Of a stretch of 18,881 nucleotides of DNA, positions 1 to 15,983 are shown piece by piece. The DNA is from a virus: positions 1 through 18,881 of IMG/VR virus record IMGVR_UViG_3300045988_178209; one strand, 5' to 3'. The translations under genes and the position numbers were made by a program. The notes below the pieces were generated by a model. The model had not been told where the DNA came from and ran no database searches. It saw nothing but the letters and a program-made list of their open reading frames with translations. Position 1 is the stretch's first letter, and every line of letters starts with the position of its first letter.

Positions 1-164
1 TGGGTTGGTTGGTGTTGTGTGTGGTGGGGTGTTGTGGTTGTTGTCTTGGTTGTTTTTTTTTTGTTTTTTCTGTGTTTGTGTTTTTCGGGTTGTGTTGTTG
101 TTGTTTGTGTGGTATGCTGTAGTTACAAACTTCAAGGGAAGGAATGTAAATTGTTTGTTGCAAC
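1..164. repeat. Left inverted terminal repeat (ITR)
   Basis: nt 1-137 are the exact reverse complement of nt 18745-18881. Identity continues with 2 mismatches (pos 138 and 148) to ~164, then decays into diverged homology through the terminal ORFs. The first 113 nt have no A and only 3 C (pos 45, 70, 86). Confidence 0.95.
90..118 (+). promoter_or_regulatory. Putative early promoter embedded in the ITR
   Basis: TTGTGT (90-95), 17-nt spacer, TATGCT (113-118), with TG at 110-111 giving an extended -10 (TGgTATGCT). It is followed by SD AAGGGAAGGAA (134-144) and a TTG at 151. An identical copy faces inward at the right end. Confidence 0.35.
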
Positions 165-492
165 TTATTTTGCGGATGATGATCGTACTGTCACTGTGAG
201 GCCTGTTGCGGTTAAGGGTGATGTGGATTGGTCGTCTCTTTATGTTGCTGATGATGGTACTGGGTATGGTATGTGGCAACAGGATGGTGATGATAGGTGG
301 TTTATTGATGTTGTTCCTGTGAATGGCTATGATCTGTGGCATGATTCGAATGCGTTGAAAATTACTGGTGTTTATGGTCTTGATGGGGATGATTGGGAGG
401 CTTGTGCGAATGATTTTCTTGCGGATTATGGTTTTAGGCTTGGTCGGTTCGATGAGGTTAAGGGTGATCGGTTTGAGCTGGTTGCGTTGTGA
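151..492 (+). CDS. Terminal acidic protein (~113 aa), paralogue of the right-end ORF; function unknown
   Basis: The track ORF 19-492 starts inside the G/T-only ITR. A more credible start is TTG 151, 7 nt after the SD AAGGGAAGGAA. I counted 23 D/E against 9 K/R. The C-terminal block DDWEACANDFLADYGFRLGRFDEVKGDRFELV is nearly identical in the right-end ORF. Confidence 0.6.
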   Translation: MFVATYFADDDRTVTVRPVAVKGDVDWSSLYVADDGTGYGMWQQDGDDRWFIDVVPVNGYDLWHDSNALKITGVYGLDGDDWEACANDFLADYGFRLGRFDEVKGDRFELVAL

Positions 493-728
493 TGGGAATG
501 TTTGTAGGTAAGGAGTGTATTGTGGAATGTTTTAGTGTCAGTATCGTTCAGCATTCGGATGGTGCTGCTACGGTTTCGTGTGAGGGCTTGTTCGGGTGTT
601 CGTATCATGCTGTGGTGCGCGCGGATGATGCGGTGTTGTTTTCGGCTTGGCTTATTGGTTGGGCTCGTGACTGTGTGGCTTTTGAGCCTGTGTGTGTGAA
701 GGGGGGTGAGTGTCGTGTTGTGTGTTGA
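489..728 (+). CDS. Hypothetical early protein (Cys-rich, ~68-79 aa)
   Basis: This is the only long frame in this interval. GTG 489 overlaps the upstream TGA stop (GTGA). An alternative start is GTG 522, 6 nt after AAGGAG (510-515). ORFs in an A-poor region are weak evidence on their own. Confidence 0.4.
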   Translation: MMGMFVGKECIVECFSVSIVQHSDGAATVSCEGLFGCSYHAVVRADDAVLFSAWLIGWARDCVAFEPVCVKGGECRVVC

Positions 729-1017
729 TGATATTATGCAACATCATTTCTTTACTTTGGTTGATTCGAAGTCTTTGCGGAGGGTTGTGTTCGTGTGGAC
801 GTGGAAGCATCCGAAGTATCGTTCGCCGTATCATGAGGTTTTCGTGCTGGCTGATGGCCGTCTGTGGTTGGTGCTTACGGAGCATGATTTGCTGGACGCG
901 TATTTGGCGTGCAAGCGTGCTTGTGATGTTGGCTTGTCTTTGGAGGGGTTGGCGTGTTCCGAGTGGTATGATGAGTATGCTTCGTGGGAGCGTCGTATTC
1001 TTGAAGATTTTGATTGA
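715..1017 (+). CDS. Hypothetical early protein (~100 aa)
   Basis: The frame-1 translation has a balanced, protein-like composition (...KHPKYRSPYHEVFVLADGRLWLVLTEHDLLDAYLACKRA...WERRILEDFD). A G-rich SD (698-708) precedes GTG 715. Alternative starts are GTG 706 and ATG 736. The overlapping frame-2 ORF (710-1027) looks like junk. Confidence 0.5.
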   Translation: MLCVDDIMQHHFFTLVDSKSLRRVVFVWTWKHPKYRSPYHEVFVLADGRLWLVLTEHDLLDAYLACKRACDVGLSLEGLACSEWYDEYASWERRILEDFD

Positions 1018-1027
1018 AAGGATTGTT

Positions 1028-1255
1028 ATGAAATCGTCTGAGCGTGATGTGAAGATCGCTGTTTTTTATAGTCCTCATCTGGCTGGTGACGTGAAGGTTA
1101 AGTATTGTCGCCATCGGCAGATGCTGGTGTTGGAATATCATACGAAGGATGGGGTGATGGCGCATGATTATGATGTGACGAAACCGAGTGAGGTGAGGGA
1201 TATGGTGTTGGATGCCATTGGTATTGCTGGCGAATCTGTCGGGGGGAGGGTGTGA
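1028..1255 (+). CDS. Hypothetical early protein (75 aa)
   Basis: ATG 1028 follows GAAAGGA (1016-1022). This is the protein-like C-terminal part of track ORF 710-1255 (MKSSERDVKIAVFYSPHLAGDVKVKY...). Confidence 0.55.
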   Translation: MKSSERDVKIAVFYSPHLAGDVKVKYCRHRQMLVLEYHTKDGVMAHDYDVTKPSEVRDMVLDAIGIAGESVGGRV

Positions 1256-1467
1256 TGTATTTTCGTGGGTTTGTCCATTCGCTTACGTGTGGTGATTGTC
1301 CGGATGCGGAGGCGTATTGGCGGCTTCGTGCTTTCTGGTGTGGCTATCGTAATTGTCGGTTTGTCGCGCCGGCTCGCTGTCCTGATTGTCTGATTGCCGT
1401 CTGGCATGACATGTGGGTGTGTGGGCATGATTATAGTGTTGAGCAGTTTGAGACGTTGGGAGTATGA
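1255..1467 (+). CDS. Hypothetical Cys-rich (zinc-ribbon-like) early protein (70 aa)
   Basis: ATG 1255 overlaps the upstream TGA (TGATG) and follows GGGGGGAGGG (1241-1250). It contains paired CxxC motifs (CGDC ... CPDC) plus further Cys/His residues. Confidence 0.5.
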   Translation: MYFRGFVHSLTCGDCPDAEAYWRLRAFWCGYRNCRFVAPARCPDCLIAVWHDMWVCGHDYSVEQFETLGV

Positions 1468-1470
1468 GTC

Positions 1471-1644
1471 ATGTATGAGACTTTCGTTGTTTTGGCTTAT
1501 TTGCGTCATGATGTTAAGCCTGTTGAGATCGGCTATGCGTCGTCGTATGACGAGGCTTATAGGGTGGTCCGTGAGTGGGCTGGCAGGCCGGAGCGTGTGA
1601 AGGATGTTTCTTATTTCAGGATTGAGGGTCGGTATTATGTCTAG
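1471..1644 (+). CDS. Hypothetical small early protein (57 aa), not in the supplied ORF track
   Basis: Hand translation gives MYETFVVLAYLRHDVKPVEIGYASSYDEAYRVVREWAGRPERVKDVSYFRIEGRYYV*. GGGAG (1457-1461) lies 9 nt upstream of the ATG. The stop overlaps the next gene's start (ATGTCTAG). It looks more protein-like than the competing track ORF 1394-1600. Confidence 0.45.
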   Translation: MYETFVVLAYLRHDVKPVEIGYASSYDEAYRVVREWAGRPERVKDVSYFRIEGRYYV

Positions 1645-2164
1645 GGGCTTTGTTCGGGGTGATGGTCGGGTTCCGATCTATCGTATGCGCGATTTTGATG
1701 ATGCGATCATGGAGTCGCCGCGTGTTCGTAGGGCGTTGCATGGTCGTATGCGTAAGGCTGGTTTGATCCGTTATGATGAGGGGTATGGTGATTTTGAGAC
1801 TTGCTGTCGGGCTGTCGCCATGCTGTGCGAATTGTGGCGTGAGGGGGTGAATCCGTGGTTTGATCGGGCTGTTCTTATGGCTGTGTGTATTGCCGGCTCT
1901 TTGAGCCGGGGGGATGGTTTGCAGTCGGCGTTGTCTCGTACTTTTGATGTGGAGTATTTGGATGGTACGGTGGATCCTGCGAATCTGATCGCTTGGTGTG
2001 CGGTGTGTGCGGTCAAGGGGGGTACGAGCTTTGATTGCTGTGCTCTTTTTGACGATGTGCAGGCGCGTAATCTTATCATTGCGGTTTTCAAGAATTTTGA
2101 CAGACTTGATGTGACTCGTTATAATGATAAGGAATTGTCAAGGATTTTTGATCAGGGAAGGTAG
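1637..2164 (+). CDS. Hypothetical early protein (175 aa)
   Basis: ATG 1637 lies 8 nt after GAGGG (1624-1628), within track ORF 1604-2164. I recognise no family. Confidence 0.6.
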   Translation: MSRGFVRGDGRVPIYRMRDFDDAIMESPRVRRALHGRMRKAGLIRYDEGYGDFETCCRAVAMLCELWREGVNPWFDRAVLMAVCIAGSLSRGDGLQSALSRTFDVEYLDGTVDPANLIAWCAVCAVKGGTSFDCCALFDDVQARNLIIAVFKNFDRLDVTRYNDKELSRIFDQGR

Positions 2165-2170
2165 GGTATT

Positions 2171-2488
2171 ATGGCTCGAGTGAAGTCGGGAGTGTTCCGG
2201 ACTCGCGTGTATGCCGTGTTGAAGGGCATGGAATTGGTGGATGGCGATTTTATGCCGATCGAGCATGTCATTGATGGGCGTCTGAAGGATGTTCGGGCGT
2301 ATGCGGTCCGTGCCAAGAGGCTTTTTCCGAATTTCATTCCGCGTACTGTCGAGATCTTTTCGCAGAAGGTCACGATGGATGACGAGACTTTTTATAAGTA
2401 TGCGACTTTTGAGGAGCCGCAGAAGTGGAATCCGGAAGAACACGAAAGAAAACGACACGCCGAAATTGAAAACAACGACGGCATGTGA
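2171..2488 (+). CDS. Hypothetical early protein (105 aa, acidic C-terminus); positional analogue of phi29 p6
   Basis: ATG 2171 follows GGAAGGTAGGG. It lies directly upstream of the SSB-like gene, as gene 6 does in phi29, and is similar in size with an acidic tail. No sequence similarity was recognised, so the functional call is positional only. Confidence 0.6.
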   Translation: MARVKSGVFRTRVYAVLKGMELVDGDFMPIEHVIDGRLKDVRAYAVRAKRLFPNFIPRTVEIFSQKVTMDDETFYKYATFEEPQKWNPEEHERKRHAEIENNDGM

Positions 2489-2494
2489 TATAAA
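2465..2494 (+). promoter_or_regulatory. Putative promoter of the replication operon
   Basis: TTGAAA (2465-2470), 18-nt spacer, extended -10 TGaTATAAA (2486-2494). A small hairpin TAGGC-acaaaa-GCCTA (~2501-2516) and an A-rich leader follow. Confidence 0.45.
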
Positions 2495-2553
2495 AGATTT
2501 AGGCACAAAAGCCTAGCAAAAAACAACAAACAACTATACAAAAGGATATGACC

Positions 2554-2991
2554 ATGGAAAACAACAACAGCACCGCACTCGTCGCATTCAACACCGAAAA
2601 CACTGAACTCGGCACCGTCCAGCACTTCATCGACACCAGCACTCGCGAAGGTAAGATCAAGCTCTACTCCGCACTCCAGAACGCGGAAAAGCTGGATGAA
2701 CATCTGAACGAAACCCTGCTCATGTCGAACGCGGTCGCACAGGCCGTGCAGGTGACCGACGATCAGACCGGGGAAGTCTCCACTACAGTGCGCGTCATTA
2801 TCGTGACCGCCGACGGCAAGGCGTACGCGGCCACCTCCCCCACTCTAGCGGCCGGGCTGAACACCATGTTCGGCATCTTCGGTACTCCGAACACGTGGGA
2901 TGCCCCTCTCGCCATCAAGGTGGTGGAACGTCGGTCCCGCCGTGGCTTCAAATTCTTCAGCATTGAGCCGGTGGATGAAGAAACGAAGTGA
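2554..2991 (+). CDS. Single-stranded DNA-binding protein, phi29 p5-like
   Basis: From memory of phi29 p5: MENNNSTALVAFNTEN..EGKIKLY vs MENTNIVKATFDTETLEGQIKIF; VIIVTADGKAYAATS vs TTIFAADGSLYSAIS; IKVVERRSRRGFKFFSIE vs VKVVQGTSSKGNVFFSLQ. ATG 2554 has better SD spacing than ATG 2548. The gene sits upstream of the TP/DNAP pair, as in phi29. Confidence 0.7.
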   Translation: MENNNSTALVAFNTENTELGTVQHFIDTSTREGKIKLYSALQNAEKLDEHLNETLLMSNAVAQAVQVTDDQTGEVSTTVRVIIVTADGKAYAATSPTLAAGLNTMFGIFGTPNTWDAPLAIKVVERRSRRGFKFFSIEPVDEETK

Positions 2992-3025
2992 TCCTATCGT
3001 GATCACCAAGTAGAATCCAAGTATA

Positions 3026-3052
3026 GAGAGCACTCCTACGCGGGGTGCTCTC
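3026..3052 (+). other. Intergenic stem-loop (possible attenuator or RNA stabiliser)
   Basis: GAGAGCACTCC (3026-3036), loop tacgc, GGGGTGCTCTC (3042-3052), with one G-U pair. Only a weak T tract (cttatct) follows. Confidence 0.3.
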
Positions 3053-3074
3053 CTTATCTGAAAGGACGTGTCCC

Positions 3075-4040
3075 ATGTCACGCAAGCAGAAGCACGTCAA
3101 AGCACGGCAGGCCGCGCAAGCCCGTGCCGCCCGCAACATCAAACAACTCGGCACCTACTCGCACGCGAATCTCGCTAAAACCGCCGACCAACAGCTTGTC
3201 AACATTGCCAAAACGTTAGGTCAGGAGTGGGAGAGGCAGAAAGCGCAAACCATTGCCAAAGCGAAAGCCACCCCCTATCATGCGACCGCCGCCGAAAAGC
3301 CGACGAAAAAAGACTATATGATAGCCAGCCGTACTCCTATTCCGGACGCGCAGATCGCCGACGAGCCCATAGTGAAACGGCGTAAGCTCCTACGCCAACA
3401 GCAACGGAAGATCAACGCGGCTAGAAGGAAAATCAATGAATGGAATCGTGCGCAAGCCATGCCAAAAGTCAGCGTATACGACCAGCGTGTAGCCGAAATG
3501 ACCGGCACGACAGGCGACACGGGATTCAGTGGAAACATCATCGTCCCATCCAAGCTGACAGACTTCCTTCAAATGACCAATGTATTGGACGATGAGGCTT
3601 TCGTCCGTGCCCAGCTGAAAGGCGGTCATCGTAAGGAGATTCTCGACCAAATGCATGACGCCGCCAGAATCCTTGGATTAAGGACGGAACGCGACCGCAA
3701 GCACACTGTCGCAAAGAAGCGGAAGAGCGGGAGGTCGGAAGTTCTCTACGGTAAAGGCGAATGGCCGGTCTACATGACTAAAAGCCGGTATGACGCTTTC
3801 GGTAAGGTGATTGGCTCTTCGCTCGGCGCGAAACGACTTAAGCGATTCCGTAGTCTGACCGCGGCTCAGAAAAGGGCTTTCATTGAACAGACCGATGCTC
3901 CCCATATCGTGTTTGGCTGGGTCGACTATGATGAGACCCATCATACATTCAGGCCGATATTCAAGCAGGATACCGAAGGGTATGAGCGTGCACGTCGAAA
4001 TTTCGATCGGTGGATGACCGAAGCCCAAACACTCGCATAA
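3075..4040 (+). CDS. Candidate terminal protein (321 aa, very basic N-terminal half)
   Basis: It lies immediately upstream of the protein-primed DNAP, as phi29 gene 3 does. The N-terminus is K/R/Q-rich (MSRKQKHVKARQAAQARAARNIKQ..., KRRKLLRQQQRKINAARRKINEW). ATG 3075 follows GAAAGGA. I see no direct similarity to phi29 TP. Confidence 0.5.
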   Translation: MSRKQKHVKARQAAQARAARNIKQLGTYSHANLAKTADQQLVNIAKTLGQEWERQKAQTIAKAKATPYHATAAEKPTKKDYMIASRTPIPDAQIADEPIVKRRKLLRQQQRKINAARRKINEWNRAQAMPKVSVYDQRVAEMTGTTGDTGFSGNIIVPSKLTDFLQMTNVLDDEAFVRAQLKGGHRKEILDQMHDAARILGLRTERDRKHTVAKKRKSGRSEVLYGKGEWPVYMTKSRYDAFGKVIGSSLGAKRLKRFRSLTAAQKRAFIEQTDAPHIVFGWVDYDETHHTFRPIFKQDTEGYERARRNFDRWMTEAQTLA

Positions 4041-4067
4041 CGACAGGATCAAAGGAAGTTATCTATC

Positions 4068-5516
4068 ATGATCGCTGACAGACGTGTAGGCTTATGGTGT
4101 GCCGACAATATCATACGATTCACGGATGGCACTCAATTGCGTGACATCGTCGCACCCCACAGCCTCTTGGCTTCCATCATGACCAATGGAAGGCTCATTG
4201 TCTACATGACCGACCCGCACATGCTTGACCCCTTCATAGCGCATGTCGTGCATAGCCTGCCACGTGACACGCATCATGCCAATATGAGCTGGGACAGCAT
4301 CGTGTCGAATAAGGGTAAATTCTTCAGCTTCACCGTAACCCTTTCCAAGAGGAATTCGGTAAGGTTTTTTGACATTTCCAATCTTTTGAGGGAGAATTGC
4401 CGCGCGATCATGTCCGATAGCCAATTGCTCGACATTCTGTGCGAGTATGACAGGCGGGGATTGTGTAGGATCACGGCCGGAGCGGCCAGTATGGAAGCTT
4501 TCGTGTCAGGCGACTGGACATGGTATGCGGACAAATTCCCCCAATTTGGGTTGGAGGATAAGAAGTCACTCCACGACGCCTATATCGGCGGATTCATGCT
4601 GGCGTGTGAAGGTGCTTATGGCAGGGCTATCGACGTGGACTGTAATTCCATGTATCCGAGCATCCTACGAGATGAGTGGCTTCCTTACGGTGAGCCGGAA
4701 GCGTATGAGGGTGCCTACAAGCAGGATGACGATATGCCGTTGCATTGTGACGAAATGACGTTTCGCGCGGAGCTGAAGCCGGGTGGGTATCCTTTTCTGC
4801 TTGACGGCCGGAGTGTCTATGGGCTGAACAGGCTTTCCTCTACCCGTGGGTTTGTCTCTCGCGTGCTTACCGACATCGACCAGCGGTTGCTTTTCGAAAA
4901 TTATGATGTGACGGTCTACCGGTATGTGCGCGGGTGGAAATTCCGGCGCTCCAAAGGTTTGTTCCGATCCTTCGTTGACGAGTGGGGGTCGGTGAAGCAG
5001 AAGGCGACGGGTGCTAGACGGCGGATGGCTAAGCTGGTCATGAATGCTTTGGTCGGCAAGATGGCGAGTCTATCGAAGGATTCCGTCATGGTGCCTTATT
5101 CGGATGATGGCGTTACCGTGCGATGGGATGTGATGAGGCGTGACGGGTCGGGTCTGAAATCCGATTATCTGCCCGTACCCGTGTGGGTCAATGCGTACGC
5201 GCGCCGCAAGCTTATGGATGTCTGTCATGCCAATGCGGATAGATTGCTGTATGCGAATACGGATGGTTGCATTTTGTCTGGTTGGGATCCGCCAAAGTCG
5301 TGTGCTGTCCATGCGACCGAGCTTGGTCGGTGGAAGATCGCCGCACGATATGAGAGGCTTGCCGTTCTTGGTATGAATCGATATCAGGGGTGGCGTGATG
5401 ATGGTGAAGTCGATGTCTGCATGTCGGGCAGTCTTTTTGTCGAGCCTATACCTTACGAAAAATTCCGGCATGGCGAGCATGTGCATGATGCGTGCGGTAC
5501 GGTGGTCGTGCTATGA
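4068..5516 (+). CDS. Protein-primed family-B DNA polymerase (482 aa)
   Basis: Colinear with phi29 DNAP by eye: GLCRITAGAASMEAF vs GLDRMTAGSDSLKGF; VDCNSMYPS (motif A) vs DVNSLYPA; LPYGEPEAYEGAY vs LPYGEPIVFEGKY; GLFRSFVDEW vs GLFKDFIDKW; KLVMNALVGK (motif B); LLYANTDGCIL (motif C). Confidence 0.9.
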   Translation: MIADRRVGLWCADNIIRFTDGTQLRDIVAPHSLLASIMTNGRLIVYMTDPHMLDPFIAHVVHSLPRDTHHANMSWDSIVSNKGKFFSFTVTLSKRNSVRFFDISNLLRENCRAIMSDSQLLDILCEYDRRGLCRITAGAASMEAFVSGDWTWYADKFPQFGLEDKKSLHDAYIGGFMLACEGAYGRAIDVDCNSMYPSILRDEWLPYGEPEAYEGAYKQDDDMPLHCDEMTFRAELKPGGYPFLLDGRSVYGLNRLSSTRGFVSRVLTDIDQRLLFENYDVTVYRYVRGWKFRRSKGLFRSFVDEWGSVKQKATGARRRMAKLVMNALVGKMASLSKDSVMVPYSDDGVTVRWDVMRRDGSGLKSDYLPVPVWVNAYARRKLMDVCHANADRLLYANTDGCILSGWDPPKSCAVHATELGRWKIAARYERLAVLGMNRYQGWRDDGEVDVCMSGSLFVEPIPYEKFRHGEHVHDACGTVVVL

Positions 5517-5523
5517 TTGGAAT

Positions 5524-5695
5524 GTCCTTCGGAGCGTCGATTTTCGACTGGGAATGACGGTGATCGGATTACCACGGCTGAGAATGCCGCCGATTGCGGG
5601 TGGTCATCATCGTGGTGGTGGTGCCCTACGATTTCAAGGTGCGCTCTCATGGGATGTCGGACCCCGCGCGTGATTGCGCGGGGTCATTGCTTTTT
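5524..5695 (+). ncRNA. Candidate ~170-nt small RNA (pRNA-like?) or structured 3' UTR
   Basis: Extended -10-like TGcTATGAT (5509-5517) overlaps the DNAP stop. About 140 nt with no convincing ORF follow, ending in a strong intrinsic terminator (5660-5695). Short local helices are visible, e.g. GTCGA/TCGAC at 5536-5548. No fold was computed. Confidence 0.2.
5660..5695 (+). terminator. Rho-independent terminator ending the early/replication transcription unit
   Basis: GACCCCGCGC (5660-5669), loop gtgatt, GCGCGGGGTC (5676-5685), then attgcTTTTT. Confidence 0.8.
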
Positions 5696-5703
5696 CGGCG
5701 TTA

Positions 5704-5712
5704 TGATATAAT
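5704..5712 (+). promoter_or_regulatory. Putative late promoter (extended -10 TGATATAAT)
   Basis: A perfect TGnTATAAT sits 9 nt after the terminator T-run and 37 nt upstream of the scaffold gene ATG. The same 9-mer recurs at 15927. Confidence 0.5.
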
Positions 5713-5748
5713 TTTCAGTGAAAGTATCGTCCAGAGTAAGGAGATCGT

Positions 5749-6027
5749 ATGGATGATCCGAAGACTGACGGCGAGGAGTCCGTTACCTCGCCGCCGACCG
5801 AAGAAGCACAGTGCACCGAGACCGTAAATGATGAGGTCAAACCGGAGGAGGGTGAGCCGGATCCGAAGCGGGAGCCGGATGTGAGCGCCCGACTTGACAT
5901 GCTCGAAAAGGAGTTGGCCGCACTCAAAGCCATGATGGATACGCTTGGCTATGATGAGTCGACCGTGACCGATGATGACGGTGTCGGCGTCGGTGATGAC
6001 GATTCCATCGAAAATTTGTTCGACTAA
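5749..6027 (+). CDS. Scaffolding protein (phi29 gp7-like by position and composition)
   Basis: 92 aa, strongly acidic, with a central helical segment (ARLDMLEKELAALKAMMDTL). It lies directly upstream of the capsid gene. SD TAAGGAG is 5 nt before the ATG. Confidence 0.65.
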   Translation: MDDPKTDGEESVTSPPTEEAQCTETVNDEVKPEEGEPDPKREPDVSARLDMLEKELAALKAMMDTLGYDESTVTDDDGVGVGDDDSIENLFD

Positions 6028-6047
6028 CGTAGGAAGGATGAACACAT

Positions 6048-7763
6048 ATGTCCACTGTTCGACCATTGGCAGGCAAGGGTGATGTTGAGATCTTCAATGC
6101 GGTGAGATCCGCTACGTCACCGCAATTCCAGACTCGTATTCCGTCGGCGACGCAGGGCAATATTCGCAATGCCGTCGACACCATGCGCAATTTCCCGTAC
6201 CTGCGCGACGAATTCACCGGAGTCCTGATCCAGCGTCTCATCGGCCTCTACGTCCAGCACGCCGACTGGGATGACCCGCTGAAGCTGGTCGGTTCTCCTC
6301 GTACGCTCAAGCGCTACGGTTCCACGTACGAGCAGGCCGCAGTCGGCTTGGTCAAGGCACGCACCCGTAATTTCAATCAGGAGTATCTTGGCGATGACGT
6401 GTACGGTCGCTATAGTCTGCCGACCGCAAGCGCCTTCCATCCATTGACTTTCGATCACTATTATCCGGTCACCATTCCGGAGGATGCGCTTCTTACCGCT
6501 TTCGACGGCGAATCCGGCATGTCGGATTACATCAGTGAGATCATGAACGCTCCGATCCTGTCGGACCGTAATGATATGTATTTGATGAAGACGCAGACGT
6601 TTGCCGAGTACGCTCGTAAGGGTGGCTTCTACCGCGTGCATACGCCTGACGTCGGCAAGGCCGATTCGACCGAGGCGGATGCGAAGGGTCTGCTCCGTCT
6701 CATCCAACAGATGGCGAACGAACTCAAGGCATCGCCAATGAGCGCCATGCCGAAATATAACGCCATGAGCTGGGTGACTCCGTGGCGCGATTCGGAAGCG
6801 ATCCTTTTCGCCACCCCGCAGGTCATCGCCGCTTTGAATGTCGAGGCTCTCGCCGCCGCCTTCAATATCGACCGCGCCAATGTCCCGTACCGTATCATCC
6901 CCATTCCCGAGGATCTTTTCGGCATCGGCGGCAATGGTGGCAAGGTGCAGGCCGTCCTCACCACCGAAGATTTCTTCTTCTGCTGGGATGAGCTGTTGGA
7001 GACCACGAATTCTCCGGTCAATCCTATCGACGGCACTCGTAACATCTTCTACAAGCACCGCGGCTCCATCACGCCGAATCCTTTCGCCAATGCCATCCTC
7101 TTCTGGACGGGTGAAGGGTCGACCGAATCGGTGACCTTGCCGGATACGCTCACGACCTCCAAGCCGGAATTCGTCCTGCGTGTCAAGAAGTACGGTCAGC
7201 CTGCGGTCACTCCTCAGAACGTGTCGCGCGGCGCTCTCGTCCAAGTGGAGGCGACCATTGCAAGCGCCAACAAGACTGCCGCATCCTTCCAGCCGGTCGG
7301 CGTCAAGTATGCGATCGAGGGGGCGACCTCACAGTATACCGGCATCGACAATGACGGTATTCTGCGCTGTGGCTTGGATGAGACCGCCGAAAGCCTCAAG
7401 GTCACGGCACAGGCGACCTACATTGACCCGGCCACTCCGGAAATCGACCAGACGCTTTCCGCGGCACTCGACGTGCCTGTCGTCGGCACGTGGGTCGGTG
7501 GCATCAAGATCGGCGCACTGTCCGGTCTGAAGGTCGACGGCCCGAATACCGTCAAGGCTTCCGAATCCGTCAAGCTGACCGCCACCGCGGTCAAGACGGA
7601 TGGTTCGAAGCAGGACGTCAGCAATCTCGCTGATTGGAGCGTGGATGCGCATGCCAAGGTCGACAAGACGGGTAAGGTTACCGGTGAGGATGCAGGCAGT
7701 GCGAAGGTGACCGTCAAATTCGCGGGAGTCACTGCGGATAAGACCATCACCGTTTCCGCCTGA
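6048..7763 (+). CDS. Major capsid protein, phi29 gp8-like, with C-terminal Big_2 Ig-like domain
   Basis: N-terminus EIFNAVRSATSPQFQTRIPSATQGNI...LIQRLIGLYV...DDPLK vs phi29 gp8 [26 protein letters not shown]...LVDRIGLVV...NNPLK. The C-terminus VKASESVKLTATAVKTDGSKQDVSNLADWSV...GKVTGEDAGSAKVTVKFAGVTADKTITV is a typical Big_2 repeat. Confidence 0.9.
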   Translation: MSTVRPLAGKGDVEIFNAVRSATSPQFQTRIPSATQGNIRNAVDTMRNFPYLRDEFTGVLIQRLIGLYVQHADWDDPLKLVGSPRTLKRYGSTYEQAAVGLVKARTRNFNQEYLGDDVYGRYSLPTASAFHPLTFDHYYPVTIPEDALLTAFDGESGMSDYISEIMNAPILSDRNDMYLMKTQTFAEYARKGGFYRVHTPDVGKADSTEADAKGLLRLIQQMANELKASPMSAMPKYNAMSWVTPWRDSEAILFATPQVIAALNVEALAAAFNIDRANVPYRIIPIPEDLFGIGGNGGKVQAVLTTEDFFFCWDELLETTNSPVNPIDGTRNIFYKHRGSITPNPFANAILFWTGEGSTESVTLPDTLTTSKPEFVLRVKKYGQPAVTPQNVSRGALVQVEATIASANKTAASFQPVGVKYAIEGATSQYTGIDNDGILRCGLDETAESLKVTAQATYIDPATPEIDQTLSAALDVPVVGTWVGGIKIGALSGLKVDGPNTVKASESVKLTATAVKTDGSKQDVSNLADWSVDAHAKVDKTGKVTGEDAGSAKVTVKFAGVTADKTITVSA

Positions 7764-7786
7764 TCCCATGATAATCGGGTAGAATG

Positions 7787-7818
7787 GGTGCAGTAGCGAT
7801 ACTGCACCTATTTTTTTT
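7787..7818 (+). terminator. Rho-independent terminator/attenuator after the capsid gene
   Basis: GGTGCAGTA (7787-7795), loop gcga, TACTGCACC (7800-7808), then TA + T8 (7811-7818). Confidence 0.8.
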
Positions 7819-7828
7819 GGAGGATATG

Positions 7829-10060
7829 ATGAGTGCGAATGATCTGCCGATTAATTTCAGCTACATGAAGTGGACGCCGAATACAAGATTCAAGCTATGT
7901 AATGTTCCGTGGGACATGGGCTATCGTGACATCGTCACATGGGATAGGCAGAGGCAGGAAGCATATTTCAATCAGCTGGAGGGTATCGAATTCACCGACT
8001 GCACCATGGCCAAATATGGTCTGCCCGTACGACTGCCGATACCTTTCGCGCAGGCATCGCAGTATAATTATTTGGTCGCCGTGAATGATTACGATTTCGA
8101 CACGCCGCGCTCATGGTATTATTTCATCCAATCCTGCGATTATGTGAATGCTCATACTACACAGCTCAATATTCAATTGGACGTGTGGCAGTCATTCCAG
8201 CATGATGTCACCTTCGGTACCGCCTATGTGGAAAGAGGTCATGTCGGCGTAGCCAATGAGCGGCAGATGGACGATTACGGCCGTGGGACGCTCGACCTGC
8301 CGGAAGGATTGGATACCGGTAAGACTTTGGTCAATGCGACCACGGCATACATGCCGCTTGCCACGGTGGAAGGCGGGCGTGTGGCTTGTGGTGTGATCAT
8401 CGCCTCCACTACCGATCTTACCGTGGATCCGGGAGATCTGACCAATCCGAAGACGACGACGGCCGGCGGTAGCATCTTCGAAAATCAGTATAATGGCACT
8501 CAGCTTATCTATCTGACCAATGCGGAGGATCTTCAGGTGGTATTTTCGCTGGGGGCGCGATATCCGTGGGTGTCACAGGGTATTTGCGGCATTTACGCGG
8601 TGCCGCGCCTGCCGGAAGGACTGTTACGCAATCAGGGTGACATGACGAAACTGTACGGAAAGACCCTGTCGGGATTGAAAGGCAAGATCATCCACCTGTA
8701 TCAGAATACGGTCCACGGTCAGGACAGGTATTCGGATATTATGACGATGAAGGATTTCCGCGACAATTTCCACATTCCCGAACGCTATAAGCATTTGAAG
8801 AAGCTGCTGACCGCCCCTTATGCGATCATCCAATGCTCCTGTCTGAATGGCACCAGCATCGAATATTCGCCGGAGCAGATACCATCCAAGGATCTGACGA
8901 TCCGCGAAGCATGGCAGTATGCGCCTCCACAGCCGCGGCTCAATTTCTGGATCCCGAATTATGCCGCCCAATATGCGGACCAATGGTCGCCCCTGCCGGA
9001 TGGTATGGGATTGCCTTTCGATAAGGGTGATATGCTGGACGCGGCTTTTGGCGTCACGAATTTTCCGACTTTCATGGCCGTCAATAATGGATCCGCTCTC
9101 TCATTGGCCAATTCCGCCTATATGAGGCAGTATGCCCAAAAGTCGGCTGACTGGTCGTATCAGAAGACGCGGATGGGCATCAATAACGCCTACTCCCAAG
9201 CCCAATTGGGAGCCCAGTATGCGAGCGAAGCCAATCGGCTCGGCACGTCCAATCGTAATTCCATGAATGCGATCAATAATCAGGCCGCGCAAATGGCCAC
9301 GGATCTGACGTTGAAGAATCTCGGATTCGATAATCAGATGGCCCAACTCAACACGATCGGGTCGGGAGCTCTCGGGGCCGTCGGCTCCCTTGCGACGGGT
9401 AATGTCGGTGGGGCGGCCGGAGCTGTGGCGGGAGCCGCGATCGGCGCATGGACGAACCAACAGACATATGACAATAACGTTTCGAGCGCGAACCAACAGC
9501 TCGCGAACACCCAAGCCACCAATAACGCTTCAACATCCCAAGCCAATGCCTACAGTCTTGCGCAGACGAATCTGAGCAACGGGCAGTCCCTGCAGTTCGC
9601 GGACATGAACCGTCAGCTGGCGCAGGCTACCGCGCAAGGCGACTATGCGAATGTGATCGCGGGCATTGACGCGCAGGTACAGCAGACACAGACCACGCCG
9701 CCGACCACGTCCGGCGCATTGGGGGGCGATGCCTTCAATCTGGCCAATGGGATCATCGGAGTATGCGTGAAATTCCGTCGCCTATCCGACGCGGCACTGC
9801 ATACGATCGGCGAATACTGGCTACGATACGGCTACTACGTCCAGCGGTTCATGACCATGCCGGCAGGTCTTATGGCCATGAGCAATTTCACGTATTGGAA
9901 GGTCCACGAATTGTATTTGAGAAGCTCGACATGTCCGGAAGAATACCGTCTGACCATCAAAGGCATTTTCGAAAGCGGTGTGACGGTGTGGAAGGATCCC
10001 GACAGGATCGGTGTCACCGACTATGCGGACAATGAGCCTCTGGCGGGTATTTCATACTGA
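7829..10060 (+). CDS. Tail knob / distal tube protein, phi29 gp9-like (743 aa)
   Basis: N-terminal region LCNVPWDMGYRD...VRLPIPFAQASQYNYLVAVNDYDFDTPRSWYYFIQSCDYVNAHTTQLNIQLDVWQSF vs phi29 gp9 ILADVPFSNDYKN...[55 protein letters not shown]. GGAGG (7819-7823) favours ATG 7829 over 7826. Confidence 0.8.
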   Translation: MSANDLPINFSYMKWTPNTRFKLCNVPWDMGYRDIVTWDRQRQEAYFNQLEGIEFTDCTMAKYGLPVRLPIPFAQASQYNYLVAVNDYDFDTPRSWYYFIQSCDYVNAHTTQLNIQLDVWQSFQHDVTFGTAYVERGHVGVANERQMDDYGRGTLDLPEGLDTGKTLVNATTAYMPLATVEGGRVACGVIIASTTDLTVDPGDLTNPKTTTAGGSIFENQYNGTQLIYLTNAEDLQVVFSLGARYPWVSQGICGIYAVPRLPEGLLRNQGDMTKLYGKTLSGLKGKIIHLYQNTVHGQDRYSDIMTMKDFRDNFHIPERYKHLKKLLTAPYAIIQCSCLNGTSIEYSPEQIPSKDLTIREAWQYAPPQPRLNFWIPNYAAQYADQWSPLPDGMGLPFDKGDMLDAAFGVTNFPTFMAVNNGSALSLANSAYMRQYAQKSADWSYQKTRMGINNAYSQAQLGAQYASEANRLGTSNRNSMNAINNQAAQMATDLTLKNLGFDNQMAQLNTIGSGALGAVGSLATGNVGGAAGAVAGAAIGAWTNQQTYDNNVSSANQQLANTQATNNASTSQANAYSLAQTNLSNGQSLQFADMNRQLAQATAQGDYANVIAGIDAQVQQTQTTPPTTSGALGGDAFNLANGIIGVCVKFRRLSDAALHTIGEYWLRYGYYVQRFMTMPAGLMAMSNFTYWKVHELYLRSSTCPEEYRLTIKGIFESGVTVWKDPDRIGVTDYADNEPLAGISY

Positions 10061-10063
10061 CGT

Positions 10064-10098
10064 ATAATGGAGTGAGCGATACAATCTCACTCCATTAT
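10064..10098 (+). promoter_or_regulatory. 13-bp perfect inverted repeat overlapping a TATAAT box
   Basis: ATAATGGAGTGAG (10064-10076), loop cgatacaat, CTCACTCCATTAT (10086-10098), with no T-run after it. TATAAT is at 10063-10068. This could be a promoter, an operator or an RNA processing site. Confidence 0.35.
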
Positions 10099-10117
10099 CT
10101 ATAGTAGGACGGTGATC

Positions 10118-11056
10118 ATGAGCAGACGCAACAATGCGCGCAAGGCTACGTATTGGGATAATCAGAGCGTACTCGGGAGCATGTGGGGCAATCTCAATCT
10201 TCCCGAGATGCGCCAATCCCTGCGTATCAATCAATACATGAAATTGATCGAAATGCTGGCCGTATCCCGCTTCAAATGGGTCAATCTCCCTCCATCCATC
10301 GACGAGAGGTATCTTGAATTGACCCTCTTCGAGAACGGGTTGGCCCTGTTTTTCCCCGATAAGCGTAAGGGTATCCATCGTTTCATGGTCACTTCCGGCA
10401 ATATCGGCGGCGTGAACAATTATAACAATCCGACGTCGTTTCAGCCGGTCGCCACCGGGTATTCGCACCCGCAGATCGGATCGAAGGAGTGCGTGCCTAT
10501 CTGGGATAATCAATTGAGATGCACGATGGTCGACGTGATGTGGAATTATGCGATACGATTGGCCATCGCCGACCGGGCTTTGGACGTGAATCTGGACAAT
10601 ATCAGCGTGCCTTTGATCATCGCCACGTCCGAGACCAACAAGCTCACCGCGCAGAATCTCATGAAGGCGCGTGAGGATGGAGACCCGTGCATCTACACAT
10701 ACGATAGCGCGGACATTTCCGGAATGTTCCAGACCTTCCCGAACGTCACTCCCTTTCTGGCGGATAAGATCATCACCACGAAGACGCAGGTGTGGAATGA
10801 GCTTGTCAATTATCTGGGAATCGACAATTCGACCACCGAGAAGAAGGAGCGCCTGCTCGAATCGGAGGTCACGGCCGGCAATTCGCGTACGAATGTCTTT
10901 CGCCTGAGCTATCTCAAGTCGAGACAGCAAGCGTGCGATACGATCAATCGACTGTGGCCTCAAATGGCCGATTCGGGCAGGCCGATCGGCGTCGAATGGA
11001 ATGATACGACGTCCGGCGGACTATTGGACGTTGATGGCACCAAGGAGGAGGAGTGA
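10118..11056 (+). CDS. Portal / head-tail connector, phi29 gp10-like
   Basis: FKWVNLPPSIDERYLE vs phi29 FEWENLPPTINPSFLE; WNELVNYLGIDNSTTEKKERLLESEV vs [26 protein letters not shown]; similar length (~312 aa). Confidence 0.9.
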   Translation: MSRRNNARKATYWDNQSVLGSMWGNLNLPEMRQSLRINQYMKLIEMLAVSRFKWVNLPPSIDERYLELTLFENGLALFFPDKRKGIHRFMVTSGNIGGVNNYNNPTSFQPVATGYSHPQIGSKECVPIWDNQLRCTMVDVMWNYAIRLAIADRALDVNLDNISVPLIIATSETNKLTAQNLMKAREDGDPCIYTYDSADISGMFQTFPNVTPFLADKIITTKTQVWNELVNYLGIDNSTTEKKERLLESEVTAGNSRTNVFRLSYLKSRQQACDTINRLWPQMADSGRPIGVEWNDTTSGGLLDVDGTKEEE

Positions 11057-11057
11057 C

Positions 11058-11870
11058 ATGGTACAGGATTTGAGCATGTATGCCGTCAGGGACGATATGG
11101 CGGATTATACGCTGACTTTAGGCAATCTGATCGCACGGGGATTTGACACGGATGAAAAACTGCACTTGAGCGCCGTGTATTATCCGATCTTCGATGAATC
11201 ATACCGTGCGAAGCTCAATGAGAAGATCGTAGCGCATTACGCTCTACGTGAGATCGGTTCGGAAACGCCGCAAATGTTCGTATTCTACTTGGGTCGTACC
11301 ATGCGCGAGCAGATGGACTATTTCAACCAATTATATCTGTCGGCCCAACGCAAGTTCGACCCTTTCATCACGTCCGATGTCCGGCAGGAAATGGACTCTA
11401 CCAGCGTCAACGAGTCGAGCGGCAGGTCTTCCGGCACGCAGTCGAATGAATCCACCGCCCACAGCACGTCCGATACCAAGGCGGACAATTCGTCGATGAC
11501 TTTTAATTCGGAGTTTCCTCAAACCCGTATCGACGATTTCAGGAAATTCGCGACCAGTGCCTCGCAGACCGATTCGACCGGCGATACGCATACGAGTACG
11601 TCGCAGGACAGTACGGCCACTGCGACCAGTCAAAGCAACACCGATTACGCGCATTCGTCGGACAAGGGCAACAGCGTGTCGCATACGCTCGGTACCAGTG
11701 GTTCGCAGTCGCAGCTGTTGCAGGATTGGCGGAATACCATGCTCAACATTGACATGATGGTCATCGATTCGCTCGAGGACCTCTTCATGGGCGTGTGGGG
11801 CAGTGGCGACAATATGACCAACGTACCACAGCTTTACAGCACGTCACTCGCCTACAATCTAGGCCATTAG
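11058..11870 (+). CDS. Lower collar protein, phi29 gp11-like
   Basis: It directly follows the connector gene. YYPIFDESYRAKLNEKIVAHYALREIGSETPQMFVFYL...YFNQLY matches the F/YREIGxET...YNQ(L/M)Y pattern I recall from Picovirinae lower-collar proteins. It has an S/T/Q-rich central region. SD AAGGAGGAGGAG precedes ATG 11058. Confidence 0.65.
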   Translation: MVQDLSMYAVRDDMADYTLTLGNLIARGFDTDEKLHLSAVYYPIFDESYRAKLNEKIVAHYALREIGSETPQMFVFYLGRTMREQMDYFNQLYLSAQRKFDPFITSDVRQEMDSTSVNESSGRSSGTQSNESTAHSTSDTKADNSSMTFNSEFPQTRIDDFRKFATSASQTDSTGDTHTSTSQDSTATATSQSNTDYAHSSDKGNSVSHTLGTSGSQSQLLQDWRNTMLNIDMMVIDSLEDLFMGVWGSGDNMTNVPQLYSTSLAYNLGH

Positions 11871-11876
11871 AGTATA

Positions 11877-12500: not shown

Positions 12501-12518
12501 CAGGAAGGATTACGGCAA

Positions 12519-13060: not shown

Positions 13061-13066
13061 CATAAA

Positions 13067-14533: not shown

Positions 14534-14602
14534 TCACGGGAGTCGGACCATGATTCGTATCGAAAGGGGTGAGAGCGCCGTGAAGTAAGGTAGGCTCGAA
14601 GG

Positions 14603-14642: not shown

Positions 14643-14659
14643 GACGAAAGAGCATTACG

Positions 14660-15916: not shown

Positions 15917-15926
15917 TCGAAACGTG

Positions 15927-15935: not shown

Positions 15936-15983
15936 AGAGACGTCGGCATTGCAGGCACATAGATAACTTCCCTTGGCCGACAT

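What the first reader, a model, noticed from the sequence alone, without database searches (positions are those of the whole stretch)
1..2490. Opposite strand-composition skews in the two arms, independent of transcription direction
The left arm is strongly G+T-rich on the + strand: 45/60 in my sample at 601-660. The right arm (about 16040-18881) is strongly A+C-rich on the + strand: 44/60 in my sample at 17521-17580. A core sample at 6241-6300 is 30/60. Genes in both arms are read from the + strand, so the skew follows distance from the genome ends and not the coding strand. Each strand is G+T-rich toward its own 5' end. In symmetric protein-primed strand-displacement replication, that is the segment which stays single-stranded longest. 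C-to-U and A-to-hypoxanthine deamination of ssDNA would drive such a skew, as in the vertebrate mtDNA heavy strand. The magnitude and the step-like boundaries are unusual and force odd amino-acid usage (G/V/C/W/F-rich early proteins).
Basis: partly seen in the sequence, partly recalled or inferred. Interest (0 to 1): 0.7.

Follow-up and report, generated by a model that had tools for sequence, protein, structure and literature searches.

The report
Mirror-image strand skew at phage ends
In this small linear Bifidobacterium phage, the last 2.4-2.8 kb at each end are built so that the strand starting at that end is about 86% G or T at silent codon positions; the pattern ignores gene direction, recurs in almost every relative, and points to a strand-specific mutation process tied to the genome ends that the textbook replication model does not fully explain.

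Summary
The window is a complete 18.9-kb phi29-like podophage of Bifidobacterium, with inverted terminal repeats, a protein-primed-type PolB and a phi29-type SSB. At fourfold-degenerate sites, G+T is 86% in the left arm (1-2437), 50% in the core and 14% in the right arm (16042-18355), although all these genes are on the + strand. The change points lie at 2437 and at about 16050-16119.

The same mirrored sign occurs in 63 of 64 relatives. It also occurs in the Actinomyces Av-1 family and in Microbacterium phage PineapplePizza, whose left-arm genes are on the opposite strand. So the rule is that the strand whose 5' end lies at a terminus is keto-rich (G+T-rich) there, not that the coding strand is.

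The polarity fits damage to the displaced strand. But single-stranded time that falls linearly to the genome centre is strongly rejected, because the effect is confined to about 2-2.6 kb. The pattern is also absent or reversed in phi29 and its Bacillus relatives, Cp-1, PRD1 and two actinobacterial tectiviruses.

Best reading: an end-anchored, lineage-specific strand-asymmetric mutation pressure, probably origin-proximal single-stranded DNA exposure. Its physical cause is unresolved.

The parts
1..182 (.). Left inverted terminal repeat; terminal non-coding stretch (1-150) is 85% G+T on the + strand
151..2437 (+). Left arm: eight tightly packed orphan ORFs g1-g8 (151-492, 492-728, 736-1017, 1028-1255, 1255-1467, 1471-1644, 1637-2164, 2171-2488), all on the + strand. 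Fourfold sites are 86% G+T. The skew ends at 2437, inside g8.
2437..2690 (+). A+C-rich 'overshoot' segment covering the g8 3' end, the spacer and the SSB 5' part (third-position skew -0.6 to -0.8); unexplained
   Evidence: SSB is negative family-wide
2548..15916 (+). Core without end-related skew: phi29-type SSB, g10 (in the syntenic position of the terminal protein), PolB, capsid, tail, connector and others. Fourfold G+T is 50%.
15906..16041 (+). Right boundary spacer: promoter-like GTTACA-18-TATAAT preceded by TG (15906-15935), a perfect 12-bp hairpin (about 15985-16018), and the ribosome-binding site of the ATPase
16042..18355 (+). Right arm: packaging ATPase (16042-17109), holin (17126-17488) and amidase endolysin (17576-18355), all on the + strand. 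Fourfold sites are 86% A+C.
18367..18399 (.). Bidirectional intrinsic terminator between the lysin (+) and g1' (-); it stops leftward transcription coming from the right ITR
18411..18731 (-). g1', the diverged ITR copy of g1 on the minus strand. Its sense-strand fourfold skew is +0.88, which gives the same + strand sign as the neighbouring lysin.
18700..18881 (.). Right inverted terminal repeat (95% complementary to 1-182)

Best explanation
The arms record a strand-asymmetric mutation pressure anchored to the two genome ends. Within about 2-2.6 kb of each terminus, the strand whose 5' end lies at that terminus gains T and G at the expense of C and A. By inference this is the strand linked to the terminal protein and displaced when replication starts there. 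Synonymous sites are driven close to saturation in this lineage.

The most likely source is damage to that strand while it is single-stranded near the origin: cytosine deamination, plus other lesions that the polymerase copies by inserting A. The exposure must be concentrated near the origins rather than spread as in the textbook model. Forks that start slowly or pause, or frequent abortive displacement events, would do this. A slow start gives single-stranded time of about tau*(1-x/p)+C, which is the truncated-linear shape that fits best.

What is shown: the pattern, its polarity, its independence from coding strand, its confinement to the arms, and its restriction to one lineage. What is inferred: that this phage replicates from both ends by protein priming, that single-stranded DNA damage is the cause, and the slow-start or abortive-fork explanation for the short range.
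For: - Synonymous-site maximum. Fourfold G+T is 86/50/14% and twofold sites agree. First and second codon positions shift only in the poorly conserved left-arm proteins. This is the usual signature of mutation pressure.
- Independence from gene direction. In the window, same-strand genes carry opposite skews, and convergent g1' and lysin share one + strand sign. In PineapplePizza the left-arm genes are on the minus strand, yet the + strand is still keto-rich (+0.61, +0.46), and the right-end genes range from -0.08 to -0.76. After adding a gene-orientation term, the end term is positive in 61/62 Bifidobacterium-family, 39/39 Av-1-family and 22/25 diverse actinophage genomes.
- A common cause at both ends. 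Left and right strengths co-vary across 64 genomes (r = -0.44, p = 2e-4).
- Non-coding DNA shares the pattern. The termini are 85% G+T.
- Polarity. It matches origins at the ends and is the opposite of what an internal origin or end-patching would give (reasoning from the established phi29 model, PMC4974454).
- Replication genes. The window encodes PolB of the PF03175 family and a phi29-type SSB.
- Stationary composition. On the shortest branches, synonymous amino-to-keto and keto-to-amino changes are nearly balanced (94 vs 96 left; 225 vs 302 right). If mutation were core-like and selection alone kept the skew, roughly a 2.4-fold excess of keto-to-amino changes would be expected.
- Substitution direction. 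On the 5'-ended strand the per-site C>T/T>C ratio is 1.24-1.32 in the arms against 0.51-0.61 in the core. The BD811P1/P3/P2 triplet points the same way but is too small to be significant.
- Published context. The phi29 literature recognises uracil arising in the single-stranded replicative intermediates as a hazard for terminal regions (PMC4974454).
Against: - The single-stranded profile of symmetric strand displacement (linear to the centre) is rejected in every complete genome. An extra, untested assumption is therefore needed.
- phi29, the phage in which these intermediates were demonstrated, lacks the skew, and 14/14 Bacillus relatives have a negative end term. Cp-1 (236-bp ITR), PRD1, and the actinobacterial tectiviruses Forthebois and MuffinTheCat also lack it.
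- The substitution spectrum is not a clean deamination signature. Changes ending in T are favoured from C, A and G, changes ending in C are disfavoured, and A>G is not clearly elevated family-wide. A fixation bias would look similar.
- For a given gene, skew does not track its exact distance from the end across 18-19 complete genomes.
- Parsimony counts are affected by saturation, and with a stationary composition the rate ratios largely restate that composition.
- Protein-primed replication from both ends has not been shown for this phage. g10 has no detectable similarity to a known terminal protein.
Confidence: 0.45

Rival explanations
1. Symmetric protein-primed strand displacement leaves each 5' segment single-stranded for a time proportional to its distance from the genome centre, and deamination (C to U, A to hypoxanthine) writes that gradient into the sequence, as on the vertebrate mtDNA heavy strand.
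For: Correct polarity, synonymous-site maximum and independence from coding strand. C/T and A/G twofold sites are both strongly biased in the window.
Against: The linear-to-centre exposure model fits much worse than end-restricted profiles (window -lnL 1844.0 against 1766.3; summed over 19 genomes 33571.7 against 33079.4). g10 and pol, at 16-29% of genome length, have fourfold skews of -0.11 and +0.18, where this model, scaled to the terminal genes, predicts about +0.8. The pattern is absent in phi29, Cp-1 and PRD1. The family-level A>G/G>A ratio is not raised.
Confidence: 0.05
2. Selection at the DNA level for keto-rich 5'-ended strands near the origins. Possible benefits: removing cytosines from the exposed strand so that uracil excision cannot break it, keeping the displaced strand free of self-pairing, or easing origin-proximal unwinding or protein binding.
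For: The substitution bias depends on the destination base (T favoured, C disfavoured, whatever the source base), as a fixation bias would. There is a slight excess of skew-eroding changes on short branches in the right arm (302 vs 225). The terminal non-coding DNA is also keto-rich. PMC4974454 describes loss of terminal regions through uracil excision in single-stranded intermediates. Restriction to one lineage is easier to accept for an adaptation.
Against: It needs effective selection on hundreds of individual synonymous sites. In the left arm, young changes are balanced (94 vs 96). It predicts the same spatial profile as mutation and therefore also fails to explain the 2-2.6 kb range. No function was tested.
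Confidence: 0.22
3. Temporal-class codon usage. Early genes prefer G/T-ending codons and the late packaging and lysis genes prefer A/C-ending codons, for translational reasons.
For: The arms coincide with transcription units: an early operon, and an ATPase-holin-lysin unit with its own promoter-like site and terminator. g1', an early-type gene at the right end, is G/T-ending in its own sense strand. For a given gene, skew does not depend on its exact distance from the end.
Against: In PineapplePizza and Mendel the left-end genes lie on the minus strand and are A/C-ending in sense, the opposite of the window's early genes; only the DNA-strand rule holds in all cases. The non-coding termini share the skew. 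The most highly expressed genes (capsid) show none. A-ending codons at 41% of fourfold sites in the lysin do not look like adaptation to a high-GC host (the host codon expectation is my own knowledge).
Confidence: 0.06
4. Transcription-associated asymmetry. The non-template strand is deaminated, or R-loops form, driven by inward transcription from promoters in both ITRs.
For: In the left arm the sense (non-template) strand is the keto-rich one. The ITRs carry the same g1 start region at both ends.
Against: In the right arm the sense strand is the amino-rich one. A strong bidirectional terminator at 18367-18399 stops leftward transcripts right after g1'. PineapplePizza's outward-transcribed left-arm genes have the opposite sense-strand sign. 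The end term survives a gene-orientation covariate.
Confidence: 0.03
5. Historical origin. Left-arm genes are young, born from or recently recombined with G+T-rich terminal DNA, and the skew decays with gene age.
For: Left-arm genes are orphans. Family-median skew falls as conservation rises: g4, 37% aa identity, +0.41, down to g8, 80% identity, +0.10. G+T-rich DNA has few stop codons.
Against: It cannot explain the right arm, where ancient conserved genes (ATPase PF05894, 87% aa identity across the family) carry the mirror skew at synonymous sites. The composition is stationary on short branches.
Confidence: 0.08

Closest known systems
Heavy-strand mutational gradient of vertebrate mitochondrial DNA (strand-displacement model; reviews PMC3269012 and PMC4182315; somatic gradient PMC8565317)
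   Same: The skew is strongest at fourfold sites, is independent of transcription, has a comparable magnitude, is attributed to time spent single-stranded, and makes the exposed strand T- and G-rich.
   Different: Here the genome is linear and has two mirror-image zones, each confined to about 13-15% of the genome, rather than a gradient across it. A>G is not clearly elevated family-wide. Changes from A and G to T are also favoured.
Leading/lagging-strand GC and keto skew of bacterial chromosomes and plasmids (PMC3269012, PMC3269016)
   Same: The strand that runs 5' to 3' away from the origin is G+T-rich, and polarity flips between the two replication directions.
   Different: The bacterial skew is roughly constant along each replichore and much weaker. 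Here it decays to zero within 2-2.6 kb of the origins and approaches saturation.
phi29 protein-primed replication with type I and type II single-stranded intermediates and the UDG inhibitor p56 (PMC4974454)
   Same: The same gene set (PolB PF03175, phi29-type SSB, connector, gp16 ATPase, capsid). The literature recognises uracil in the displaced strands as a threat to terminal regions.
   Different: phi29 and its Bacillus relatives do not show the skew, and their end term is negative. The window has 182-490-bp ITRs instead of 6 bp, and all replication and late genes lie on one strand.
Transcription-associated strand asymmetry
   Same: It yields a keto-rich sense strand, as seen in the left arm.
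   Different: The sign is wrong for the right arm and for the left arms of PineapplePizza and Mendel.
Skew reported for adenoviruses, which also replicate by protein-primed strand displacement (recalled from Grigoriev 1999; not found in the searchable library)
   Same: A linear genome with origins at both ends and an expected mirror polarity.
   Different: As I recall it, that skew changes sign near mid-genome and is confounded with transcription direction. It was not described as a saturated, end-restricted effect. I could not verify this here.

Membership tests
phi29-like protein-primed podovirus | Family B DNA polymerase of the protein-primed (organellar/viral) type | tested here: met
   PF03175, E = 9e-23, at 4068-5516
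phi29-like protein-primed podovirus | phi29-type structural and packaging genes (capsid, connector, tail knob, gp16 ATPase) and SSB | tested here: met
   PF25622, PF05352, PF20934, PF05894 and PF17427; 77-80% nucleotide identity over the matched parts (27-74% of the window) to Bifidobacterium phages BD811P1-3 and BP1
phi29-like protein-primed podovirus | Linear genome with inverted terminal repeats | tested here: met
   1-182 and 18700-18881 are 95% complementary; 24 relatives are also bounded by ITRs
phi29-like protein-primed podovirus | [quoted passage not shown] | tested here: inconclusive
   g10 (3075-4040) lies between SSB and pol, as the terminal protein gene does in Av-1 and PineapplePizza, but it has no Pfam or PHROG hit and no BLASTP similarity to the Av-1 terminal protein. 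The covalent link cannot be tested from sequence.
phi29-like protein-primed podovirus | Packaging RNA (pRNA) | tested here: not met
   No Rfam match at E <= 1 anywhere in the window. pRNAs are very divergent, so this is weak negative evidence.
Replication-driven single-stranded-DNA mutational skew (mtDNA type) | Skew maximal at synonymous sites | tested here: met
Replication-driven single-stranded-DNA mutational skew (mtDNA type) | Skew independent of transcription direction | tested here: met
Replication-driven single-stranded-DNA mutational skew (mtDNA type) | Magnitude proportional to the single-stranded time predicted by the replication model | tested here: not met
   The linear-to-centre model is rejected in 19 of 19 complete genomes. 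The best fits are truncated-linear (p = 1.0-2.6 kb) or exponential (lambda = 0.44-1.15 kb).
Replication-driven single-stranded-DNA mutational skew (mtDNA type) | Spectrum dominated by C>T and A>G on the exposed strand | tested here: inconclusive
   The C>T/T>C ratio is raised about 2.3-fold over the core. A>G/G>A is not clearly raised, while A>T and G>T are. The method is parsimony-based and limited by saturation.
Replication-driven single-stranded-DNA mutational skew (mtDNA type) | Present in other genomes that share the replication mode | tested here: not met
   Absent or reversed in phi29-like Bacillus phages, Cp-1, PRD1, Forthebois and MuffinTheCat. Present in the actinobacterial phi29-like lineages.
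Transcription-associated strand asymmetry | The sign of the skew follows the coding (non-template) strand | tested here: not met
   Same-strand genes carry opposite signs in the two arms. The sign is reversed relative to sense in PineapplePizza's left arm.
Bacterial-type replichore skew | Roughly uniform skew along each replication arm, switching at the origin and terminus | tested here: not met
   The skew is about zero over the central 13.6 kb.

The most novel reading that the evidence does not exclude
A lineage of protein-primed podophages of Actinomycetota carries a previously undescribed, near-saturating mutational footprint confined to the first 2-2.6 kb from each origin. If so, their replication differs from the phi29 paradigm: forks start slowly, pause or abort, or the ends are processed by a nuclease, so that single-stranded exposure concentrates at the termini. 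Alternatively, a lineage-specific factor may edit or protect the 5'-ended strand. Either way the skew would be a sequence-only readout of replication dynamics and of true genome ends in uncultured linear phages.
Probability: 0.3. Interest if true: 0.75.

Novelty: new variant of a known kind. Interest (0 to 1): 0.6.

Why it matters
Strand skews are the main sequence-only evidence for how genomes replicate. Here 86% of silent sites are biased in one direction at one end of an 18.9-kb genome and in the opposite direction at the other end, within a single same-direction gene array. That is as strong as the skew of animal mitochondrial DNA.

The effect is family-wide and visible in over a hundred genomes from human-gut and oral metagenomes and from soil isolates. 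I found no report of it in the searchable literature.

It shows that the ends of these phages experience something the centre does not, and that the textbook phi29 model is not enough to explain it. This makes a concrete question testable in the culturable phages BD811P1-3, BP1, Av-1 and PineapplePizza: where and for how long is the DNA single-stranded, and which lesions are fixed?

There are practical consequences. The skew marks true genome ends and orientation in metagenomic contigs. It distorts codon-usage and host-prediction tools. It also shifts amino-acid usage in the early proteins (V, C, W, F and R up; T, N, Q, K and I down).

Tried and rejected
- Left-arm genes on the minus strand, which would have made the skew follow coding strand. 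Rejected: the + frame is open in 96-100% of relatives, diversity runs pos3 > pos1 > pos2, and ribosome-binding sites precede the + strand starts.
- Antisense transcription of the right arm from the right ITR. Rejected because of the bidirectional terminator at 18367-18399.
- A true step at fixed boundaries. In the window, step and truncated-linear fits are equivalent (-lnL 1766.1 against 1766.3). Family-wide the truncated-linear model is best, so the plateau is saturation.
- Skew against exact distance from the end within each orthologous gene. No correlation; the sample is small (n of about 18) and assemblies are ragged at the ends.
- Polarised substitutions on the window and L076 branches. 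Uninformative, because conditioning on agreeing outgroups at saturated, highly skewed sites removes ancestral amino sites.
- Recent-mutation spectrum. The family has almost no pairs closer than 97% apart from duplicate records. The BD811P1/P3/P2 triplet gives only 29 and 26 arm changes; the direction is as expected but not significant.
- Closer relatives of the window. None above 87% identity in IMG/VR or the metagenome contigs.
- Host mismatch-repair status (NucS) as the modifier. My recollection that Bifidobacterium lacks NucS could not be confirmed in PMC5290159, so I dropped it.
- The host phylum as the cause. Rejected: actinobacterial tectiviruses lack the pattern.
- Long ITRs as the cause. 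Rejected: Cp-1 (236 bp) and PRD1 lack the pattern.
- Functional annotation of the arms. Rfam, Pfam and PHROGs gave nothing for any left-arm gene. g1 has no relative among PDB sequences.

Full report
**What the window is.** The 18,881-bp window is a complete linear genome bounded by inverted terminal repeats. Positions 1-182 and 18700-18881 are 95% complementary, and a more diverged copy continues to about 492 and 18411. Over the parts that match (27-74% of the window), it is 77-80% identical to the lytic Bifidobacterium phages BD811P1-3 and BP1. It encodes a PolB of the organellar/viral type (PF03175), a phi29-type SSB (PF17427), a phi29-type capsid, connector and tail knob, a gp16 packaging ATPase, a holin and an amidase. 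Every gene from 151 to 18355 is on the + strand. The only minus-strand gene is g1' (18411-18731), the ITR copy of the first gene, g1.

**Checking the observation.**
- G+T on the + strand is 70.0% in 1-2437, 48.9% in 2438-16041 and 33.7% in 16042-18881. Both the GC and the AT components contribute.
- The effect is much larger at silent positions. Fourfold-degenerate sites are 86.4% G+T in g1-g8, 49.9% in the thirteen core genes and 13.6% in ATPase-holin-lysin (Fisher p = 2e-40 and 3e-37).
- Twofold pyrimidine and purine sites move the same way: T fraction .88/.48/.20 and G fraction .85/.61/.21.
- Change-point analysis of third positions puts the boundaries at 2437, which is 17 codons before the g8 stop, and at 16050-16119, the first codons of the ATPase.
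- Two small corrections. Glycine is not enriched in the left-arm proteins; V, C, W, F and R are, and T, N, Q, K and I are depleted. One gene at the right end is on the minus strand.

**Which strand codes in the left arm.** A keto-rich strand and its complement both have few stop codons, so both strands show long ORFs. If the left arm were read from the minus strand, the skew would simply follow the coding strand. Three results exclude this.
- For g4-g8, the + frame is open over the matched region in 96-100% of 58-71 relatives, while the best antisense frame is open in only 4-72%. This is partly by construction, because the regions are tblastn matches in the + frame.
- Nucleotide diversity runs pos3 > pos1 > pos2 in the + frame.
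- The + strand ORFs have ribosome-binding sites and overlapping stop-start junctions.

**Relatives.** I collected 80 IMG/VR loci and 64 metagenome loci of the same family, 24 of them bounded by ITRs.
- Median fourfold skew per orthologous gene is: g4 +0.41, g5 +0.45, g6 +0.27, g7 +0.24, g8 +0.10, SSB -0.22, core genes -0.05 to -0.15, ATPase -0.23, holin -0.42, lysin -0.56.
- 63 of 64 genomes have a positive left arm and a negative right arm. The two strengths co-vary (r = -0.44, p = 2e-4, not corrected for phylogeny).
- The window, L076, L052 and the BD811P phages form the strongest group.
- Averaged over 19 complete genomes, the third-position skew of the 5'-ended strand in 300-nt bins from the end is .51.53.44.37.32.20.07, -.13 on the left and .32.48.50.44.31.21.17.15.14.00 on the right.
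- So the family shows a decline over 2-3 kb. The window's plateau-and-step is the saturated version of that decline.

**Coding strand or DNA strand.** Several independent comparisons favour the DNA strand.
- Within the window, genes on the same strand carry opposite skews.
- Convergent lysin and g1' share one + strand sign, -0.88 each. By itself, g1' is also compatible with an 'early-gene codon usage' idea.
- The decisive cases are phages whose left-arm genes point the other way. In Microbacterium phage PineapplePizza, the two left-end genes are on the minus strand, yet the + strand is keto-rich at their fourfold sites (+0.61, +0.46). The core is near zero and the right-end + strand genes range from -0.08 to -0.76. 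Arthrobacter phage Mendel behaves likewise.
- A per-site logistic model with a gene-orientation term gives a positive end term in 61/62 Bifidobacterium-family genomes, 39/39 Av-1-family genomes and 22/25 diverse actinophage relatives (13 with delta-lnL > 3). It is 3.21 (delta-lnL 165.6) for the window.
- The only rule that fits every case is that the strand whose 5' end lies at a terminus is keto-rich near that terminus.
- The non-coding termini obey it too, at 85% G+T.

In the established phi29 scheme (PMC4974454), polymerases start at both ends and displace the 5'-ended strands. A displaced position x is then single-stranded for a time proportional to L-2x, falling linearly to the genome centre. 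Asynchronous initiation makes this profile flatter, never steeper.
- I fitted saturating two-state models to fourfold sites. For the window, -lnL is 1951.2 (no end effect), 1844.0 (linear to centre), 1773.5 (exponential, length scale 800 nt), 1766.3 (linear but truncated at p = 2618 nt) and 1766.1 (step at 2500).
- Over 19 genomes the sums are 34072.8, 33571.7, 33136.7, 33079.4 and 33129.1, with p = 1.0-2.6 kb.
- The textbook profile is therefore rejected in every genome.
- It is not rescued by codon selection in highly expressed core genes. The low-expression g10 and pol genes, at 16-29% of genome length, have skews of -0.11 and +0.18, where that model predicts about +0.8.

**Generality.** The pattern is not a general consequence of protein priming.
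- phi29 shows nothing, and 14 of 14 Bacillus phi29-like genomes have a negative end term.
- Cp-1 has a 236-bp ITR and the same one-strand gene layout, yet shows nothing. Neither does PRD1.
- The host phylum is not sufficient either. The actinobacterial tectiviruses Forthebois and MuffinTheCat lack it.
- The effect belongs to the actinobacterial phi29-like podovirus lineages. It is strongest in the Bifidobacterium family, clear in the right arm of the Av-1 family, and weaker in soil relatives.

**Mutation or selection.**
- Parsimony on per-gene trees at fourfold sites shows reciprocal counts (for example C>T 111 against T>C 105 in the left arm on short branches). The composition is therefore stationary in the family.
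- On the 5'-ended strand, the per-site C>T/T>C ratio is 1.24 (left) and 1.32 (right), against 0.51-0.61 in the core.
- Starting from C, A or G, the share of changes that end in T rises about 1.5-1.8-fold, and the share that end in C falls to about 0.6-fold.
- The A>G/G>A ratio is not clearly different from the core.
- This looks more like 'insert A opposite any lesion on a damaged template', or like a fixation bias, than like pure cytosine plus adenine deamination.
- On the shortest branches (<0.006), synonymous amino-to-keto and keto-to-amino changes are nearly balanced: 94 vs 96 on the left and 225 vs 302 on the right. If mutation were core-like and only selection maintained the skew, about a 2.4-fold excess of keto-to-amino changes would be expected. 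This favours mutation bias modestly.
- Cleaner tests failed for lack of close genomes.

**Other explanations.**
- Transcription fails on sign in the right arm. It also fails on the strong bidirectional terminator just downstream of g1'.
- Birth of young genes from G+T-rich terminal DNA could contribute to the left arm. It cannot explain silent sites of the ancient ATPase.
- An internal origin or end-patching would give the opposite polarity. This is reasoning, not a test.

**Most likely mechanism.** The best-supported reading is an end-anchored, strand-asymmetric mutation pressure on the 5'-ended strand. Its polarity fits displaced-strand damage, but the exposure must be concentrated within about 2-2.6 kb of each origin. 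A fork that starts slowly, or that often pauses or aborts near the origin, gives single-stranded time of about tau*(1-x/p)+C. That is exactly the truncated-linear form that fits best. The saturating response then turns it into the window's plateau and apparent step. This last part is inference, and nothing in the sequence proves it. I put 0.45 on the mutational end-exposure reading and about 0.22 on DNA-level selection with the same polarity. The other readings get little.

**Novelty.** Replication-linked skews are well known (PMC3269012, PMC3269016, PMC4182315, PMC8565317). I found no report of a saturated, mirror-image, end-restricted skew in protein-primed phages. The phi29-like review that includes BD811P1 does not mention skew. 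I classify the finding as a new variant of a known kind.

Noticed in passing
window 151-492 (+) and 18411-18731 (-): The ITR continues as a diverged copy, so each end carries a paralogous acidic ORF (g1, 113 aa; g1', 106 aa). Each sits behind a GGAAGGA-type ribosome-binding site and a TTG start, so whichever end is read first would express the same kind of protein. Neither has a Pfam, PHROG or PDB-sequence match.
   Followed up: partly
window 18367-18399: A 13-bp GC-rich hairpin flanked by an A-run and a T-run: a bidirectional intrinsic terminator between the convergent lysin and g1'.
   Followed up: partly
window 2097-2125: A perfect sigma-70 consensus (TTGACA, 17 nt, TATAAT) inside the 3' end of g7, upstream of g8. 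It may start the g8-SSB-replication operon. The skew boundary lies about 310 nt downstream of it, not at it.
   Followed up: no
window 2437-2690: A sharply A+C-rich segment (third-position skew -0.6 to -0.8) covers the last 17 codons of g8, the spacer and the first 45 or so codons of SSB. The SSB gene has a negative fourfold skew in the whole family (median -0.22).
   Followed up: partly
window 15906-16041: A promoter-like site with a TG-extended -10 element, followed by a perfect 12-bp hairpin (GGGGGTGTGACG...CGTCACACCCCC), just upstream of the ATPase ribosome-binding site. Its function is unknown; it could be a regulatory RNA structure or a terminator of the tail operon.
   Followed up: no
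window 5517-5748: A 232-nt non-coding gap after pol holds a strong terminator (5660-5685) and then a TGATATAAT late-promoter-like site. The upstream 140 nt fold only modestly better than shuffles (z = -1.68). No Rfam pRNA match exists anywhere in the window, so the packaging RNA of this family, if it has one, is unlocated.
   Followed up: partly
window 17489-17576: The lysin reading frame is open from 17489, but the first ATG, GTG or TTG is at 17576. The PHROG profile alignment begins at profile position 32, and relatives annotate about 293 aa. The start codon is therefore uncertain; it may be non-canonical.
   Followed up: no
window 1255-1467: g5 is a 70-aa cysteine-rich protein with paired CxxC-like motifs, suggesting a zinc ribbon. 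It is conserved in 60 relatives at about 49% identity.
   Followed up: no
window 3075-4040: g10 occupies the position of the terminal protein gene (between SSB and pol). It has no detectable similarity to the Av-1 terminal protein and no family hit.
   Followed up: partly
window 4500-5700 and core genes: Only in the window does the pol region show a moderate positive third-position skew (+0.22 to +0.48). On the window's own branch, core genes show 60 C>T against 18 G>A synonymous changes, a + strand C>T excess beyond what composition explains.
   Followed up: no
L252-L288 (Bacillus phi29-like genomes): The end term is consistently negative (-0.15 to -0.94 in 14 of 14 genomes): near the ends the 5'-ended strand is slightly A+C-rich. 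This may be gene-specific codon usage shared by descent. I did not analyse it further.
   Followed up: no
L358 (MuffinTheCat): In this tectivirus the sense strand is G+T-rich at fourfold sites in most genes of both divergent gene blocks (+0.1 to +0.7). This is a transcription-linked pattern and differs from the end-linked pattern studied here.
   Followed up: no
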